Below, piece by piece: positions 5,563 through 41,160 of a stretch of DNA of 41,641 nt (positions are counted from its first letter, which is position 1; each line of letters begins with the position of its first letter). The translations under genes were made by a program, and so were the position numbers. Source of the stretch: Candidatus Komeilibacteria bacterium (GTDB taxonomy: Bacteria > Patescibacteriota > Patescibacteriia > UBA1558 > GWA2-36-10). The stretch lies in contig JABHZY010000023.1 of NCBI GenBank assembly GCA_018656065.1, forward strand, positions 1 to 41,641, written 5' to 3'. The notes beneath the pieces were generated by a model that saw nothing but the letters and a program-made list of their open reading frames with translations, was not told the origin of the DNA and ran no database searches.

Positions 5563-5638
5563 GCCCTTATAGCTCAGCTGGTAGAGCAGTTGCCTCTTAA
5601 GCAAACGGTCGGGGGTTCAAGTCCCTCTGGGGGCACCA
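5563..5638 (+). tRNA. tRNA-Lys(CTT)
   Basis: GCCCTTATAGCTCAG...CT-CTT-AA...GGGGGCACCA. Confidence 0.95.
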
Positions 5639-5665
5639 TTCGATTACACTCATGGTCTACGACCA
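5636..5665 (+). repeat. tRNA-anchored REP-like element, short form
   Basis: CCA-TTCGATTACACTCA-TGGTC-TAC-GACCA starting at the tRNA-Lys CCA. Confidence 0.8.
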
Positions 5666-5778
5666 TTTAAAATAATCCTACTTGGGATTGTTTTTTATTT
5701 GACCTTTTTATACTTTCTATGATTATATGATAGTAGCTAACGTTCCAAGCACCACACTCTTTCCAAAGGAGCAATGAA

Positions 5779-6060
5779 ATGAAGAACACTCTAGTCTTGC
5801 TCCTAGTGGGCAACAAAGCACCAACTCCTGAGTTGGTCCAAGAAATGGCTCAAGATCAGGAAGCTAGATATCTGATCATTCAAGATCAAAATGGACCTAT
5901 AGGAGACCAAATACTGCACTGGCTAGCTATCACTAAAGCCCCTTGTGTAGTACGTATACTGCCCTATCATCCTGATCATAAAGGATGGAATCAAACAAAT
6001 CTCACTGATCTCAAGAGACGTCTGTTTCCCGAGTCTACACCCAGCTCGATGATCGCTTAA
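5779..6060 (+). CDS. Hypothetical protein (GC-richer single-gene unit)
   Basis: AAGGAG SD, upstream TTGACC box, downstream hairpin. Confidence 0.65.
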   Translation: MKNTLVLLLVGNKAPTPELVQEMAQDQEARYLIIQDQNGPIGDQILHWLAITKAPCVVRILPYHPDHKGWNQTNLTDLKRRLFPESTPSSMIA

Positions 6061-6192
6061 TCCCCTTTCCAGTTCGATTCTGACGAGGGGATTCTCTTTT
6101 AGATAGACATTATTGACTTATTTAGCTAATATGATAAAGTATTGTGTCCGCTCGTCCTTCGTCACCGCAACACCTTGAGAGGAGGTGAAGCA

Positions 6193-6777
6193 ATGAGTCT
6201 CTATTCTCTAGGACAAATGTCCTGCCAAATTGAAGACCGTTCACCTAGCCTGATTATTACTCTGAAAGGAGCTTTTGACCAAGATGTATTTCCTTTTATT
6301 AGGCACATCACTGAAGTAGACCAAAATGTAATCCTGGGCATTCCTGAAAGGAGATTTAAAGGCTTCATCTTTGACCTTTCAGAGGTAAATAAAGTAGGGA
6401 GAGAACTCGAAATCTTCCTAACTGACCTGTGCCAAAGGTGTCGAACTCTCTATCAGGGCCGTGGCATTTTCTGTGGCATTTTCGGTAGTAATCGAAACTC
6501 CCTAGAATTCCTCCGTACTTTCGGATATGCCAACGGCATCTGGAGTAGTCGAGACATCGAGGGAGCTGAGCTCCTATGCCATGCCGATGTAGTAAGATGC
6601 ATCCGAAAAACGCCCTGTAGAGACTACACTGTTGGTGACCTATATGAATTCGACGTTCAGCAGGGACCTCCAACTATATGGGTCCAAAGAACTGGTCCAG
6701 ACATGGGCCTATGTGGTAGAACGACGATTCTACAGCCGGCGGAGCTTCTACACTATTTTGCTCCGGCGACACTCTGA
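6193..6777 (+). CDS. STAS-like (anti-anti-sigma-like) domain protein with C-terminal extension
   Basis: GGAGGTG SD before ATG 6193; IITLKGAFD...FIFDLSEVNKVG...LEFLRTFG resembles the STAS pattern. Confidence 0.6.
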   Translation: MSLYSLGQMSCQIEDRSPSLIITLKGAFDQDVFPFIRHITEVDQNVILGIPERRFKGFIFDLSEVNKVGRELEIFLTDLCQRCRTLYQGRGIFCGIFGSNRNSLEFLRTFGYANGIWSSRDIEGAELLCHADVVRCIRKTPCRDYTVGDLYEFDVQQGPPTIWVQRTGPDMGLCGRTTILQPAELLHYFAPATL

Positions 6778-6816
6778 GGGGCGGTTTGTGCACACGCGAA
6801 CCGCCTCTTCCTTTTT
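6776..6816 (+). terminator. Intrinsic terminator
   Basis: GAGGGGCGGTT...AACCGCCTCTT stem followed by T tail. Confidence 0.65.
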
Positions 6817-6842
6817 ACTAAAATATCTGTTAAATTAACTCT

Positions 6843-7745
6843 ATGGAAATTACATATCAAAAAGAAACTAAAGAACGCCTGGATAAATATTTGCTAGGTC
6901 ATTTAGATATTACCCGTAGTCAAATAAAAAAAGTTATTTTAGCTGGGCATGTTACTGTTAATAATCAGGCAGCCAGTGTCCATCATTGGCTACGTTCTGG
7001 CGACAAAATAAATTATAATCCCCAAGAGCAACCCAAAGAAACTGCTTTTGTAGCACTCCCTAAAGTTATAGCCAAAACCGATGAATTTGTAGTAGTGGAA
7101 AAACCCCATGGCCTACTATCTCACGCTACTGACAAAGGTGAGCTCAATACTCTGGCTGACTGGGTCATGCAAGAATTTCCTGAAGCTATTAAAATTGGTG
7201 ATGATCCTCAACGTCCATCTATTGTCCATAGACTAGATAAAGAAGTGTCAGGTCTAATGGTCATTCCGCTTACTCAAGATAGTTTTGATAATATTAAAAA
7301 ACAATTTCAAGATAGAACAATCAAAAAAGAATATACAGCTCTGGCTCACGGTCAAATGATTAATGGCCAAGGTGAAATAAATACTCCGCTAGAACGTGAC
7401 AAAAAAACTGGTCTAATGAAAGTACAGTCTAGTAAATTTACTGGCAAGCCCGCTCTGACTACCTATGAAGTAATCAAAAAACTCATTAATTATACTTTGG
7501 TCAAAGTCCAAATTAAAACTGGACGTATGCATCAAATCCGCGCGCACTTCTATTCTATTGGACACTCTATAGTTGGCGATAGACTTTATCAAACTAAAGA
7601 TCTACGTAAAAAGAAAAAAGTACTAGAGCAAAGAATATTTTTGCATTCTCACTTTTTAAAATTTAAAGACCTTGAGGGTAATTGGCAAGAATTTAATTCT
7701 CCTCTACCTCACATACTGCAAGAATTTTTAAATAAAGCAAAATAA
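6843..7745 (+). CDS. RluA/RluD-family pseudouridine synthase
   Basis: S4-like RLDKYL...RSQI N-terminus; VHRLDKEVSG catalytic motif; TGRMHQIRAH. Confidence 0.92.
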   Translation: MEITYQKETKERLDKYLLGHLDITRSQIKKVILAGHVTVNNQAASVHHWLRSGDKINYNPQEQPKETAFVALPKVIAKTDEFVVVEKPHGLLSHATDKGELNTLADWVMQEFPEAIKIGDDPQRPSIVHRLDKEVSGLMVIPLTQDSFDNIKKQFQDRTIKKEYTALAHGQMINGQGEINTPLERDKKTGLMKVQSSKFTGKPALTTYEVIKKLINYTLVKVQIKTGRMHQIRAHFYSIGHSIVGDRLYQTKDLRKKKKVLEQRIFLHSHFLKFKDLEGNWQEFNSPLPHILQEFLNKAK

Positions 7746-8299
7746 TGAAATCCGAAAAAATAATTGCAATCATAACTGGGCCTTCTGCTGTTGGCAAAAG
7801 CACTATTGCCAAAGAAGTTTTAAAGCGTTTAAAAAATTTCAAACCATCGACTACTTATACAACTAGACCAAAAAGAAAAGAAGCTGAAGATAAAATAATG
7901 TATAATATTTCTGAGGCCGAATTTAAAGAAAAAATAGATAACAATGAGTTTATTGAGTGGGCTCATTTCTATGGTAATTTTTATGGTAGTGATAAAAAAG
8001 CTGTAGAAGAAGGGCTGAAAACAAATAATATTTTGATGAATATAGATGTGGAGGGGGCTACAATCATAAAGAAAAAAATAGACAATAACGTCTCTATATT
8101 TATATTGCCAGGCAGCATAAAAAAAATAAAAGAACGCATGGATAAACGTAATATGCCTGAACCTATGAAAAAATTACGATTAAAAAGAGCAAAAGAAGAA
8201 ATTGATCAGGCTAGTAATTTCGATCATCAAATAATAAATTATGATGGAAAATTAGAGCAAACTGTTGATAAAGTGGTTAAAATATTAGAAAGATACTAA
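7745..8299 (+). CDS. gmk: Guanylate kinase
   Basis: GPSAVGKST, TTRPKR, FIEWA..YGNFYG, IDVEGA. Confidence 0.92.
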   Translation: MKSEKIIAIITGPSAVGKSTIAKEVLKRLKNFKPSTTYTTRPKRKEAEDKIMYNISEAEFKEKIDNNEFIEWAHFYGNFYGSDKKAVEEGLKTNNILMNIDVEGATIIKKKIDNNVSIFILPGSIKKIKERMDKRNMPEPMKKLRLKRAKEEIDQASNFDHQIINYDGKLEQTVDKVVKILERY

Positions 8300-40367: not shown

Positions 40368-40413
40368 AATTTTACTAAATAAAAATAAAATATTACTGTC
40401 CATCGGCTTATTA

Positions 40414-40710
40414 TTGGTATTTTTCTTCCTGGGTTCTACTCATGTAGTTATTTGTAAATTACCAGTTTGCGAACCTCTGCCAATATACTCTGATATAATT
40501 CGTGATATTACTTTATGGCCATCACTTATTTTTGTTTCCTCTCCAGGCCCATTACTTGAAATCGGCTTATTTGTATTATTGCCATTATACTATTATCTAT
40601 TATCTTGTCTCTGGTTTTATAAAAAAAATGATTGGAAGATAAAAAATTATTTTTTATTATCTCTAGCTCTTATAATTATAGTCTATTCAATAATTATGAT
40701 GTACAATTAA
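40414..40710 (+). CDS. Small hypothetical membrane protein
   Basis: Hydrophobic ORF; start codon uncertain. Confidence 0.5.
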   Translation: MVFFFLGSTHVVICKLPVCEPLPIYSDIIRDITLWPSLIFVSSPGPLLEIGLFVLLPLYYYLLSCLWFYKKNDWKIKNYFLLSLALIIIVYSIIMMYN

Positions 40711-40804
40711 AATTATATAAACCGTGTTTAAGTTAATGAAAACTATCCTACTAAAAAAGCACCCTAGTGGGTGTTTTTTATTTTAGGTTATAAACCTAGG
40801 TGTC

Positions 40805-40880
40805 TGGAGCGGGTAAGGGGAATCGAACCCCTCTCTTCAGGTTGGAAACCTGACATAATAAACCACTATACTATACCCGC
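40805..40880 (-). tRNA. tRNA-Gly(TCC)
   Basis: Reverse complement GCGGGTA...TCAGG-TT-TCC-AA-CCTGA...CCCGCTCCA. Confidence 0.93.
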
Positions 40881-40895
40881 TAATTTTAATTTAAA

Positions 40896-40972
40896 TGGTC
40901 GGGGTGAGAGGACTCGAACCTCCGACCTCATCGTCCCAAACGACGCGCGCTAGCCAACTGCGCCACACCCCG
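40896..40972 (-). tRNA. tRNA-Pro(TGG)
   Basis: Reverse complement CGGGGTG...CGTCG-TT-TGG-GA-CGATG...CCCCGACCA. Confidence 0.95.
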
Positions 40973-40985
40973 ATATTTTGTTTAT

Positions 40986-41085
40986 GCCCTTCGACTATGC
41001 TCAGGACATTCGACTCTATGACTTCTATATTCGCTTACTGGTCGAAGACCGTGAGCGAAGTTTCACAAAGTGAAACGAAGTCGAA
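40986..41085 (-). repeat. 47-bp tRNA-anchored element, 26-bp spacer and inverted REP (doublet)
   Basis: Reverse complement TTCGACTTC-GTTTCAC-TTT-GTGAAAC-TTCGCTCACGGTCTTCGACCA (41039-41085), then CGAATGTCCTGAGCATAGTCGAAGGGC (40986-41012). Confidence 0.85.
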
Positions 41086-41160
41086 TGGTGCCACGGGGCG
41101 GAATTGAACCACCGACACAAGGATTTTCAGTCCTCTGCTCTACCACTGAGCTACCGTGGC
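41086..41160 (-). tRNA. tRNA-Phe(GAA)
   Basis: Reverse complement GCCACGG...AGGA-CT-GAA-AA-TCCT...GTGGCACCA. Confidence 0.95.

What the first reader, a model, noticed from the sequence alone, without database searches (positions are those of the whole stretch)
5636..41088. Palindromic element family that uses the tRNA CCA end as its left arm
Seen: 5 of 11 intact tRNAs (Lys, Leu, Ala, Val, Phe) run straight into a REP-like unit of the form CCA-TTCGA...(G/A)CTCA-(T/C)GG, with 0-3 nt between CCA and core. Four end in a hairpin GGTC-TWC-GACCA that recreates an ACCA end. The Ala and Val copies are identical 47-mers. The Phe copy, about 32 kb away on the other strand, is also 47 nt with compensatory changes in the inner stem (GTTCTAC/GTAGAAC vs GTTTCAC/GTGAAAC). 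The Lys copy lacks that inner stem. The downstream GG can pair with the tRNA CCA or with the element's own CCA. Inference: a non-autonomous element targeting tRNA 3' ends regardless of isotype (ACCA as possible target duplication), and/or a structured trailer controlling tRNA 3' maturation. From recollection the core resembles palindromic repeats found beside GIY-YIG nuclease genes. No such gene or RAYT is in this window.
Basis: partly seen in the sequence, partly recalled or inferred. Interest (0 to 1): 0.75.

Follow-up and report, generated by a model that had tools for sequence, protein, structure and literature searches.

The report
Hairpin repeats anchored on tRNA ends
A small palindromic DNA repeat starts exactly at the CCA end of many tRNA genes in this tiny uncultured bacterium and in many other bacteria, comes and goes between close relatives, and travels with a tiny nuclease gene, so it looks like an undescribed kind of mobile repeat that homes to tRNA gene ends.

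Summary
In the window, 4 of 11 tRNA genes (Lys, Ala, Val, Phe) run from CCA straight into one unit: TTCGAY, an optional inner hairpin, GCTCA, then a TGGTC-TWC-GACCA hairpin. Leu carries a related subtype. Genome-wide, 11 of 46 tRNAs carry the unit, with one weak match elsewhere. It occurs in 61 of 101 related genomes. A strict pattern finds it across several phyla, with 85 of 119 copies at called tRNA or tmRNA ends of 18 kinds.

Occupancy differs between species of one genus at the same tRNA genes. The inner stem covaries but is almost purely Watson-Crick (463 WC, 3 GT), which points to DNA rather than RNA. A downstream inverted word pairs with CCA-TTCGAY (65 of 69 complementary).

A single-domain GIY-YIG gene of 85-100 aa often follows, always inside tRNA clusters in this order. 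Genomes without small GIY-YIG genes lack the unit (12 of 13).

Best reading: a gene-less palindromic repeat tied to a UPF0213-type GIY-YIG nuclease. It is analogous to Ssn/NTS or REP/RAYT but fails the published SRM pattern and is anchored on CCA ends, which I did not find described. ACCA is not a target duplication. An RNA-processing role is not excluded. Two earlier notes of this scan report the same layout on other genomes.

The parts
5636..5665 (+). CCA of tRNA-Lys(ctt) (5636-5638) plus the short unit (5639-5665). The unit is TTCGAT, 3 nt, ACTCA, TGG, then the hairpin GGTC-TAC-GACC and A. It has no inner hairpin.
   Evidence: (E 3.2e-7)
8906..8930 (+). Subtype 2 at tRNA-Leu(gag). CCA+AAC forms a 6-bp stem with GCTTGG around the 13-nt core at 8912-8924.
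   Evidence: The same layout occurs at tRNA-Lys(ttt) on contig C6.
8939..8983 (+). Inverted (B-type) unit with a second small inverted unit nested in its loop.
   Evidence: A comparable nested copy occurs in G003.
9081..9130 (+). CCA of tRNA-Ala(tgc) plus the 47-nt unit (9084-9130) with a 7-bp inner hairpin. This is a solo copy with no inverted partner.
   Evidence: (E 1.8e-16). The orthologous site is empty in G004, G005, G002 and G001 and filled in G003.
9226..9275 (+). CCA of tRNA-Val(tac) plus the 47-nt unit (9229-9275), identical to the Ala copy.
   Evidence: The site is filled in G004 and empty in G005, G002, G003 and G001.
9301..9328 (+). Right inverted word ATCGAATG (9301-9308), which pairs with CA+TTCGAT at the tRNA-Val end. 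The inverted B hairpin follows (9309-9328).
   Evidence: fold; covariation in 65 of 69
41039..41088 (-). CCA of tRNA-Phe(gaa) (41086-41088) plus the 47-nt unit (41039-41085). Its inner stem differs from the Ala/Val copies on both sides.
   Evidence: (E 9.4e-16)
40985..41014 (-). Right inverted word GTCGAATG plus the inverted B hairpin belonging to the Phe copy.
18042..18055 (+). Solitary short core between CC and GG, not at a tRNA. It belongs to the wider core family.

Best explanation
The trailers are copies of a small palindromic DNA repeat. They are gene-less derivatives, or cis sites, of a tiny selfish cassette built around a single-domain GIY-YIG nuclease of 85-100 aa (UPF0213-like). The fullest form reads: tRNA or tmRNA CCA end, unit A, a short spacer, an inverted word and inverted unit B, then the GIY-YIG gene. 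Most copies have lost, or never had, the gene.

In unit A the gene's own CCA is the outer left arm. It pairs with TGG after GCTCA, and CA-TTCGAY pairs with RTCGAATG further down. The unit ends in a hairpin that again finishes in ACCA.

I infer the following by analogy with Ssn/NTS. The folded single strand of the unit is bound by the nuclease, which nicks nearby. Repair copying from another occupied tRNA end then spreads the unit. Single-strand hairpin extrusion with template switching keeps the stems perfectly complementary while their sequence drifts.

Shown here:
- exact position at CCA ends of any isotype;
- gain and loss between congeners;
- DNA-like covariation;
- linkage and co-occurrence with small GIY-YIG genes.

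Inferred only:
- binding and cutting by the nuclease;
- the copying mechanism;
- why CCA ends are chosen.
For: Position:
- 11 of 46 tRNAs in the genome carry the unit, with 1 borderline match elsewhere.
- In relatives, 24 of 33 matches start at the CCA of a called tRNA, plus one tRNA cut by a contig end.
- Across phyla, 85 of 119 strict-pattern copies are at called tRNA (80) or tmRNA (5) ends of 18 kinds.

Turnover:
- Five congeners have 7, 1, 11, 4 and 1 copies.
- At the orthologous Leu-Ala-Val cluster every combination of filled and empty sites occurs. At empty sites CCA runs straight into a short spacer or terminator.
- Metagenome contigs of near relatives lack the 98-nt Leu trailer or the Ala unit (weak evidence, likeness threshold 88).

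DNA-like palindrome:
- All 7 inner-stem pairs show both-sided changes, and 96% of cells are paired against 21-44% when slid.
- Over 87 distinct middles there are 463 WC, 3 GT, 2 AC and 8 other pairs.

Long-range inverted word:
- It is present after 69 of 119 copies, against 3 of 119 in an upstream control window. It is complementary in 65 of 69, and all 9 T variants pair with A.

Nuclease link:
- A GIY-YIG ORF lies 40-362 nt downstream in 22 of 119 cross-phylum copies, mostly of the 87-aa type.
- In 30 genomes the best homologue sits behind a same-strand tRNA in 28 of 30, the other two being at contig starts. The unit lies between tRNA and ORF in 13 of 29 relatives' loci, 11 of them at E <= 0.013.
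- The unit occurs in 60 of 88 genomes with a small GIY-YIG and in 1 of 13 without. That one genome is 79% complete.

Tandem copy:
- One unit is appended to the ACCA end of another in L203, 1 case of 119.

Precedents:
- Ssn nucleases bind hairpin repeats as single-stranded DNA and cut upstream (PMC11893778; abstract, first part of Results, Discussion read).
- T4 SegB is a GIY-YIG endonuclease in a tRNA cluster that recognises T-psi-C stem-loop DNA (PMC2330249, abstract only).
Against: - No biochemical or transcript evidence exists for any step.
- No target-site duplication or clean right end was found.
- Only 22 of 119 copies have the nuclease gene nearby.
- The GIY-YIG gene itself looks mostly inherited in place. 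Tyr-Thr holds 15 of 30 rows, and site labels cluster on the tree, although at least 3 extra switches are needed (the tree is poorly resolved, with 2 of 28 branches well supported).
- 28 of 88 genomes with a small GIY-YIG have no match to my model.
- The co-occurrence test is not corrected for relatedness, and the model is most sensitive in close kin.
- The model and the pattern both include CCA, so position at a CCA word is partly built in. What was actually tested is whether that CCA belongs to a tRNA.
- The alignment used for pair counts was fitted to the model.
- The units fail the published SRM search pattern: 1 match against 0-2 in random genomes.
- The tRNA-linked nuclease is nearer to UPF0213 structures than the genome's Ssn-like gene is.
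- The unit is always co-oriented with the tRNA and is surely transcribed with it, so an RNA role cannot be dismissed.
Confidence: 0.6

Rival explanations
1. The unit is a functional RNA trailer. After transcription it folds back on the tRNA CCA (ACCA with UGGU) and guides or protects 3'-end maturation, or it insulates the tRNA from the downstream message. Conservation would then reflect RNA function, not mobility.
For: - The unit is always co-oriented with, and contiguous to, the tRNA.
- Its termini are conserved across phyla.
- Composite trailers fold more stably than shuffles, with z from -2.4 to -5.1 for five loci.
- Pairing with CCA is possible in every copy.
Against: - G-U pairs are almost absent from a stem whose sequence varies freely: 3 of 476 pairs, no more than A-C.
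- Occupancy differs between congeners at the same tRNA, and two congeners have a single copy.
- Copies sit behind tRNA fragments that cannot be matured: 5 of 33 in relatives, and 12 cross-phylum copies have an intact tRNA or tmRNA 63-344 nt upstream.
- The same core occurs inverted on the same transcript and inside terminator loops.
- Rfam has no match.
Confidence: 0.15
2. The repeats are host-domesticated marks for an Ssn-like single-stranded-DNA nuclease. They would control recombination or incoming DNA, as proposed for NTS in Neisseria, and would not be selfish mobile DNA. Their position at tRNA ends would reflect where such marks are tolerated.
For: - The units co-occur with small GIY-YIG genes.
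- The Ssn precedent exists (PMC11893778).
- The nuclease gene keeps the same Tyr-Thr slot in many genera.
- The short core is about 23-fold enriched outside a crude ORF mask: 33 of 46 copies lie in the 10% of the genome left uncovered.
Against: - The exact junction at CCA in most copies is hard to explain by tolerance alone.
- The units fail the SRM pattern.
- There is no evidence of competence or of any effect on recombination.
- Copy numbers vary 1-20 per genome among close relatives.
Confidence: 0.15
3. The units are leftovers of integrase attachment sites, that is, duplicated tRNA 3' ends left by integrative islands.
For: - Islands do use tRNA genes in this genome. An integrase-like ORF lies next to tRNA-Thr, and earlier notes e1-2036731 and e1-2064351 report the same.
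- tRNA 3' fragments lie upstream of some units.
Against: - The unit is not a copy of any tRNA 3' end. The same unit follows 18 tRNA kinds and tmRNA.
- It begins after CCA, not inside the tRNA.
- The fragments are better read as units that were already there when an island displaced the old tRNA end.
Confidence: 0.05

Closest known systems
Ssn nucleases with NTS / Ssn-related motifs (SRM), Chenal et al. 2025, PMC11893778
   Same: Both involve a single-domain GIY-YIG protein of about 90-100 aa and many short hairpin repeats near the gene and scattered through the genome. In both, the repeats have an orientation and are mostly intergenic. The authors themselves compare the layout with IS200/IS605 and REP.
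   Different: - The published SRM search pattern does not find these units.
- The tRNA-linked protein matches UPF0213 structures at E 1e-17, whereas the genome's other, NTS-flanked GIY-YIG matches them only at E 0.002. The two share 37% identity.
- Repeats lie upstream of the gene only, not on both sides.
- The main text of the paper never mentions tRNA: 0 occurrences.
- Its supplementary tables could not be seen and might list tRNA contexts.
REP / BIME / REPIN elements with RAYT (Y1) transposases
   Same: Both are short extragenic palindromes, often in inverted pairs that form larger mosaics. Both have gene-less copies that far outnumber the single enzyme gene, and both are hairpins read as single-stranded DNA.
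   Different: No Y1 transposase was found in this 88%-complete genome. The associated gene is a GIY-YIG nuclease. The junction with CCA ends of tRNA genes is not a REP feature as far as I recall.
Phage T4 SegB, a free-standing GIY-YIG homing endonuclease in a tRNA gene cluster (PMC2330249, abstract read)
   Same: Both are GIY-YIG genes sitting between tRNA genes. SegB's recognition site includes the conserved T-psi-C stem-loop word, and the units here begin with the same TTCGA word.
   Different: As I recall, SegB is a larger multi-domain protein, whereas the protein here is a bare 85-100 aa domain. No repeat family is described for SegB. The strict pattern finds no copy in 2.9 million viral contigs.
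[quoted passage not shown]
   Same: It is a palindromic word found behind about half of the tRNA genes of one genome, and it was proposed as a 3'-maturation signal.
   Different: It is an archaeon-specific motif with a different sequence, placed about 10 bp away rather than fused to CCA. It has no nuclease link and no cross-phylum spread.
Bacterial MITEs such as Correia or RPE elements (recalled, not searched in detail)
   Same: These are short, gene-less and bounded by inverted repeats. They vary between strains and fold into long hairpins.
   Different: No target duplication is seen here. The left inverted repeat overlaps the tRNA's own CA. Stems differ between copies within one genome yet stay perfectly paired.

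Membership tests
Ssn / SRM system (Chenal 2025) | Repeats match the published degenerate SRM search sequence, with enrichment over shuffled genomes. | tested here: not met
   1 match in the whole genome against 0-2 in ten Markov-1 random genomes. None of the matches is at a unit.
Ssn / SRM system (Chenal 2025) | The nuclease is a single-domain GIY-YIG protein of CDD family cd10448. | tested here: inconclusive
   Single-domain GIY-YIG status is met (PF01541, 69 bits, 87 aa). CDD was not available. The best solved relatives are UPF0213 proteins 1ywl and 1zg2.
Ssn / SRM system (Chenal 2025) | Repeats flank the nuclease gene on both sides. | tested here: not met
   In the six loci read in full, units lie only between the tRNA and the ORF. 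After the ORF comes the next tRNA or unrelated DNA.
Ssn / SRM system (Chenal 2025) | The nuclease cuts single-stranded DNA site-specifically next to the hairpin, and does not cut dsDNA or RNA. | not testable with these tools
   This needs purified protein and oligonucleotides.
REP/REPIN-RAYT | A Y1 (HUH) transposase gene is present in the genome and flanked by the repeats. | tested here: not met
   PF01797 gives no match in the own genome, which is 88% complete.
MITE (transposase-mobilised inverted-repeat element) | Terminal inverted repeats. | tested here: met
   CA-TTCGAY and RTCGAATG were found at 69 of 119 copies and are complementary in 65 of 69.
MITE (transposase-mobilised inverted-repeat element) | A target-site duplication flanks the element. 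| tested here: not met
   Filled and empty orthologous sites show no duplicated word. The terminal ACCA is one strand of a covarying hairpin.
Free-standing GIY-YIG homing endonuclease of tRNA clusters (SegB-like) | The endonuclease gene lies between tRNA genes. | tested here: met
   28 of 30 loci have a same-strand tRNA 15-199 nt upstream. 27 of 30 have one from 9 nt before the end of the protein match to 352 nt after it. Outside this order, only 3 of 22 have a tRNA within 100 nt downstream.
Free-standing GIY-YIG homing endonuclease of tRNA clusters (SegB-like) | It cleaves gene-less alleles and is copied into them (homing). | not testable with these tools
   There is only indirect evidence. 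The gene has changed tRNA slot at least 3 times on a poorly resolved tree.
Rfam RNA families | Match to a curated covariance model. | tested here: not met
   No family other than tRNA covers the trailers at the gathering threshold. In 8700-9450 at E <= 10, the non-tRNA matches are far below their gathering scores.

The most novel reading that the evidence does not exclude
UPF0213-type single-domain GIY-YIG nucleases, a very widespread family without a settled function, would be the engines of a cross-phylum class of minimal mobile elements. Their insertion site would be the CCA end of tRNA and tmRNA genes. Their gene-less hairpin copies would use the gene's own CCA as one arm and rebuild an ACCA-ended hairpin so that insertion can repeat. 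A related 14-20-nt core would be dropped into the tips of other palindromes such as terminator hairpins, which would make this a hairpin-tip and CCA-end targeting mechanism acting on single-stranded DNA.
Probability: 0.35. Interest if true: 0.8.

Novelty: new variant of a known kind. Interest (0 to 1): 0.66.

Why it matters
If the reading is right, it gives a testable function to a very common family of tiny nucleases. It also adds a new target type, the CCA end of tRNA and tmRNA genes, to the known ways small bacterial repeats spread.

It explains a large share of the non-coding DNA around tRNA genes in ultra-small (CPR) bacteria, where 1 to 20 copies per megabase genome were found.

It warns annotators that these GC-rich trailers are neither terminators nor tRNA extensions.

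Site-specific nucleases for single-stranded DNA are sought as tools. A second family, with a different and highly conserved site, would be useful.

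Tried and rejected
- **Rfam.** Searches at the gathering threshold and at E <= 10 on 8700-9450 and on L209 gave nothing for the trailers.
- **Y1 transposase.** None found in the genome.
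- **SRM pattern of the Ssn paper.** It does not find the units.
- **Viral contigs.** The strict pattern gave 0 matches.
- **RNA evidence.** All runs were contigs, so no RNA ends could be read.
- **Known RNA motifs.** By eye I considered hammerhead-like and kink-turn-like readings of the inverted unit. I dropped them because the conserved letters do not fit those motifs as I recall them. No tool test was made.
- **tRNA-Thr fragment.** I first read the tRNA-Thr 5' fragment behind the GIY-YIG gene (L001) as a scar of that nuclease.
- **Sorting non-tRNA copies.** My regular-expression sorting of the 34 non-tRNA copies into intact and truncated T-arms worked badly, with 25 landing in 'other'. What I say about them rests on the listed upstream tRNAs and on reading the printed flanks.
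- **Orthologue comparison of terminator loops.** It succeeded for 2 of 4 loci tried. For L050 and L053 the flanks could not be matched or the spacer held another gene.
- **GIY-YIG tree.** It is too short (82 columns) to date or direct moves.
- **Literature.** Searches for a description of repeats at tRNA CCA ends or of GIY-YIG genes in bacterial tRNA clusters found none. Subscription journals are not covered.

Full report
**What is there**

The window is a whole 41.6-kb contig of a roughly 1-Mb genome. The genome has 33% GC, 29 contigs and 88% completeness. Earlier notes of this scan call the organism a Komeilibacteria (CPR) bacterium; I did not check the name.

ARAGORN finds 11 tRNA genes in the window and 46 in the genome. 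I printed the 110 bases after every tRNA.

The unit begins at the base after CCA. It reads TTCGAY, a few bases, an optional inner hairpin, YCG/RCTCA, TGG, and then a 5-bp hairpin TGGTC-TWC-GACCA whose 3' strand ends in ACCA.

In the window it follows Lys-ctt (short form), Ala-tgc, Val-tac and Phe-gaa. The Ala and Val copies are identical 47-mers, and the Phe copy differs in the inner stem on both sides.

Leu-gag carries a related subtype. CCA plus three bases forms a 6-bp stem around a 13-nt core, followed by an inverted unit with another unit nested in its loop. The same subtype follows Lys-ttt on another contig.

**More than chance**

A covariance model built from nine copies finds 11 matches at E <= 0.03 at tRNA 3' ends in the own genome. 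These include two copies not used to build it, Leu-tag and Tyr-gta, both with an enlarged terminal hairpin. One borderline match lies elsewhere, and three more at E 0.5-0.9 are short cores. The model contains the ACCA, so part of this result is by construction, but most of its score comes from the trailer.

**A wider family**

The first half of the unit, CC(N)-TTCGAY-N2-4-RCTCA-(N)GG, also stands alone.

- It occurs 36 times in the genome against 1-6 in random genomes.
- With a slightly wider pattern it occurs 46 times, and 33 of these lie outside a crude ORF mask that covers 90% of the genome.
- Many copies are the loop of an A-run/T-run terminator-like hairpin whose stem differs from copy to copy.
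- The 'B' hairpin that follows many trailers is the same core on the other strand.

I compared two orthologous loci.

- In one, the sister species G004 has the same terminator stem with a 4-nt loop where this genome has the 15-nt core.
- In the other, an A/T palindrome is bare in G002. It holds this core with CCC/GGG arms in this genome and holds other GC hairpins in G001 and G003.

So small hairpin units enter the tips of palindromes. This rests on 2 of 4 loci tried.

**Relatives and other phyla**

The model matches 61 of 101 genomes of the same class-level sample, own genome included, with 1 to 20 copies each.

In the 29 loci fetched there were 33 matches.

- 24 begin 3 bases inside a called tRNA.
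- One follows a tRNA cut by the contig end.
- Five follow a 3' fragment of a tRNA that starts in the T-loop and has an intact tRNA 35-126 nt upstream.
- One follows a tRNA-like or tmRNA-like end.
- One is a non-tRNA hairpin.
- One is weak.

Their titles break down as follows.

| Title label | Loci |
|---|---|
| CPR lineages (Saccharibacteria, Komeilibacteria, Gracilibacteria, Peregrinibacteria, Parcubacteria, Uhrbacteria, Doudnabacteria, Berkelbacteria and others) | 57 |
| 'uncultured Gammaproteobacteria' | 23 |
| Armatimonadota (two MAGs) | 9 |
| Alphaproteobacteria | 2 |
| Verrucomicrobia | 1 |
| WS2 | 1 |
| 'Bacillati ANGP1' | 1 |
| Unclassified | 21 |

I did not check these labels.

Of the 119 copies in those loci, 85 start at the CCA of a called tRNA (80 copies, 18 kinds) or tmRNA (5 copies). 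Of the other 34:

- 12 have an intact tRNA or tmRNA 63-344 nt upstream and a tRNA-end-like stretch directly before the unit;
- five look to me like tmRNA ends that ARAGORN missed;
- three are at contig edges;
- one is a second unit joined to the ACCA end of the first.

No copy was found in 2.9 million viral contigs.

**Turnover**

The five other species of the genus have 7, 1, 11, 4 and 1 matches. At the orthologous Leu-Ala-Val cluster the pattern is as follows.

| Genome | State of the three sites |
|---|---|
| G005 | All three empty |
| G004 | Only Val filled, with unit, spacer and inverted unit |
| G003 | Only Ala filled |
| G002, G001 | Other inserts |
| This genome | All three filled |

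At an empty site CCA is followed at once by a short spacer or by the terminator that lies beyond the insert in filled genomes. No word is duplicated.

Metagenome contigs laid at 88% likeness include forms in which the 98-nt Leu trailer or the Ala unit is replaced by 7-12 other letters. These may come from sister species and are weak support.

**Structure**

On the 33 matches from relatives, all 7 pairs of the inner hairpin change on both sides. 96% of cells are paired, against 21-44% when the partner column is slid (the alignment was fitted to the model).

The terminal hairpin also changes on both sides at two of its five pairs. An example is GGCC/GGCC in place of GGTC/GACC. In larger copies it holds a second inner hairpin in its loop.

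Over 87 distinct inner segments of the cross-phylum set I counted 463 Watson-Crick pairs, 3 G-T, 2 A-C and 8 others. A stem whose sequence is free but which avoids wobble pairs, and where G-T is no commoner than A-C, looks like a DNA palindrome and not like a selected RNA helix. Template-switch correction of quasi-palindromes is a known way to keep arms identical (recalled, not tested).

A further, long-range pair exists. 69 of 119 copies have the word NTCGAATG a median of 26 nt after the unit, against 3 of 119 in a control window. Its first base is complementary to the Y of CCATTCGAY in 65 of 69, and all nine T variants have A. So CA of the tRNA plus TTCGAY is the left member of an 8-bp inverted repeat. 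The inverted B hairpin follows directly.

RNA folding of five composites gives z-scores of -2.4 to -5.1 and either this stem or a full fold-back of A on B.

**The nuclease gene**

The genome has two GIY-YIG genes, both outside the window.

The first, of 87 aa, lies 171 nt behind tRNA-Tyr. A long variant of unit A and an inverted unit sit between them. It matches the solved UPF0213 proteins 1ywl and 1zg2 at E 1e-17 and 1e-15.

The second, of 106 aa, is flanked on both sides by hairpins of the GTCAT-palindrome-ATCTG kind, which resemble the NTS of Neisseria. It matches UPF0213 only at E 0.002. The two proteins share 37% identity.

Homologues of the 87-aa protein occur in 88 of 101 genomes, with 1-12 matches each. 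The best match in each of 30 genomes has these features.

- It lies behind a same-strand tRNA at 15-199 nt in 28 of 30; the other two are at contig starts.
- It lies before another same-strand tRNA in 27 of 30.
- By upstream tRNA, 15 of the 30 lie behind Tyr (most between Tyr and Thr), 7 behind Met (most between Met and Asn), 3 behind Ile (Ile-Phe), 2 behind Val (Val-Ala) and 1 behind Pro; two sit at contig starts.
- A unit starting at the CCA lies between tRNA and ORF in 13 of the 29 relatives' loci.

In several loci the ORF ends at or inside the next tRNA.

In the cross-phylum set a GIY-YIG ORF lies 40-362 nt after 22 of 119 units. It usually scores better with the 87-aa query. There only 3 of 22 are followed by a tRNA within 100 nt. 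The left anchor on a CCA end is therefore the general feature, and the tRNA-tRNA slot is not.

Units are found in 60 of 88 genomes with a small GIY-YIG gene and in 1 of 13 without. That one genome is 79% complete. Fisher p is 4e-5, not corrected for relatedness.

On a short, poorly resolved tree the slot labels cluster (9 changes, shuffled mean 14.8). At least three switches of slot are still needed, one of them inside a well-supported clade.

**Reading**

The data fit a small palindromic repeat tied to a single-domain GIY-YIG nuclease. This is the same general kind of thing as NTS/SRM with Ssn (PMC11893778) or REP with RAYT. It has its own sequence, a different subfamily of nuclease, and a junction with the CCA end of tRNA and tmRNA genes.

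The main text of the Ssn paper does not mention tRNA. Its search pattern does not find these units.

T4 SegB shows that a GIY-YIG endonuclease can live in a tRNA cluster and recognise T-psi-C stem-loop DNA (PMC2330249, abstract). The units begin with the same TTCGA word and their second conserved word, GCTCA, is that of the tRNA D-arm. Whether that is mimicry, origin or chance is open.

The tRNA fragments in front of some units are most simply old tRNA ends displaced by integrative islands, which are active at tRNA genes in this genome (notes e1-2036731, e1-2064351). If so, the unit was already there when the island arrived.

How the unit is copied, why CCA ends are chosen and whether the nuclease acts on it at all are inferences.

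The RNA rival remains possible, since the unit is surely transcribed with the tRNA. It is disfavoured by the lack of wobble pairs, the variable occupancy and the copies behind dead tRNA ends.

**Known or new**

Six library searches and Rfam gave no description of repeats fused to tRNA CCA ends in bacteria. The nearest is a palindrome about 10 bp behind tRNA genes of Methanopyrus (PMC5217627, passages).

Two earlier notes of this scan (e1-1334151, e1-2377293) report the same layout in another CPR genome and in a Dependentiae genome, also without finding it in print. They gave me the lead to the Ssn paper and are not independent evidence.

I rate it a new variant of a known kind.

Noticed in passing
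window 14350-17780 and 41514-41641: The rRNA genes are unlinked. The 16S 3' end (41514-41641, minus) is followed by tRNAs Ile, Phe, Pro and Gly, while 23S (14672-17780) and 5S (14350-14464) lie about 23.7 kb away. The 23S match spans 3109 nt for a 2925-nt model, so it may hold an insert.
   Followed up: no
L018 / L074 (G006) and L013 (G011): The small GIY-YIG ORF ends at or inside the 5' end of the next tRNA gene. In the Met-GIY-Asn locus the stop codon lies within the tRNA, so RNase P processing would remove it from the message.
   Followed up: partly
L002 1250-1990 (own genome, contig C6 near 312 kb): A second GIY-YIG gene (106 aa) is flanked on both sides by several hairpins of the form GTCAT, palindrome, ATCTG. 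These resemble the Neisseria NTS but fail the published SRM pattern.
   Followed up: partly
L052 near 580 (own genome, contig C21 near 92.9 kb) and L210, L212, L213: One orthologous A/T palindrome between two genes is bare in G002 and holds a different GC-rich hairpin insert in each of G000, G001 and G003. It appears to be an insertion hot spot at the centre of a palindrome.
   Followed up: partly
L001 1254-1460 and 335-1219: A 5' fragment of tRNA-Thr(ggt) lies between the GIY-YIG gene and an intact tRNA-Thr, which is followed by a 294-aa integrase-like ORF.
   Followed up: partly
L001 2020-2050: Just upstream of tRNA-Tyr, the first 11 bases of the tRNA are repeated and run into a core hairpin (TTCGGC variant). 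This is unexplained.
   Followed up: no
own genome contig C6, about 95 nt after tRNA-Gln(ctg) at 66315: A stretch resembling the last 12 bases of that tRNA, ending in CCA, recurs downstream of the gene. It is a possible displaced tRNA end.
   Followed up: no
L174 and L177 (MAGs titled Alphaproteobacteria): Two strict-pattern copies with nearly the same inner segment lie at no called tRNA and in a different sequence context. I did not look at what they sit in.
   Followed up: no
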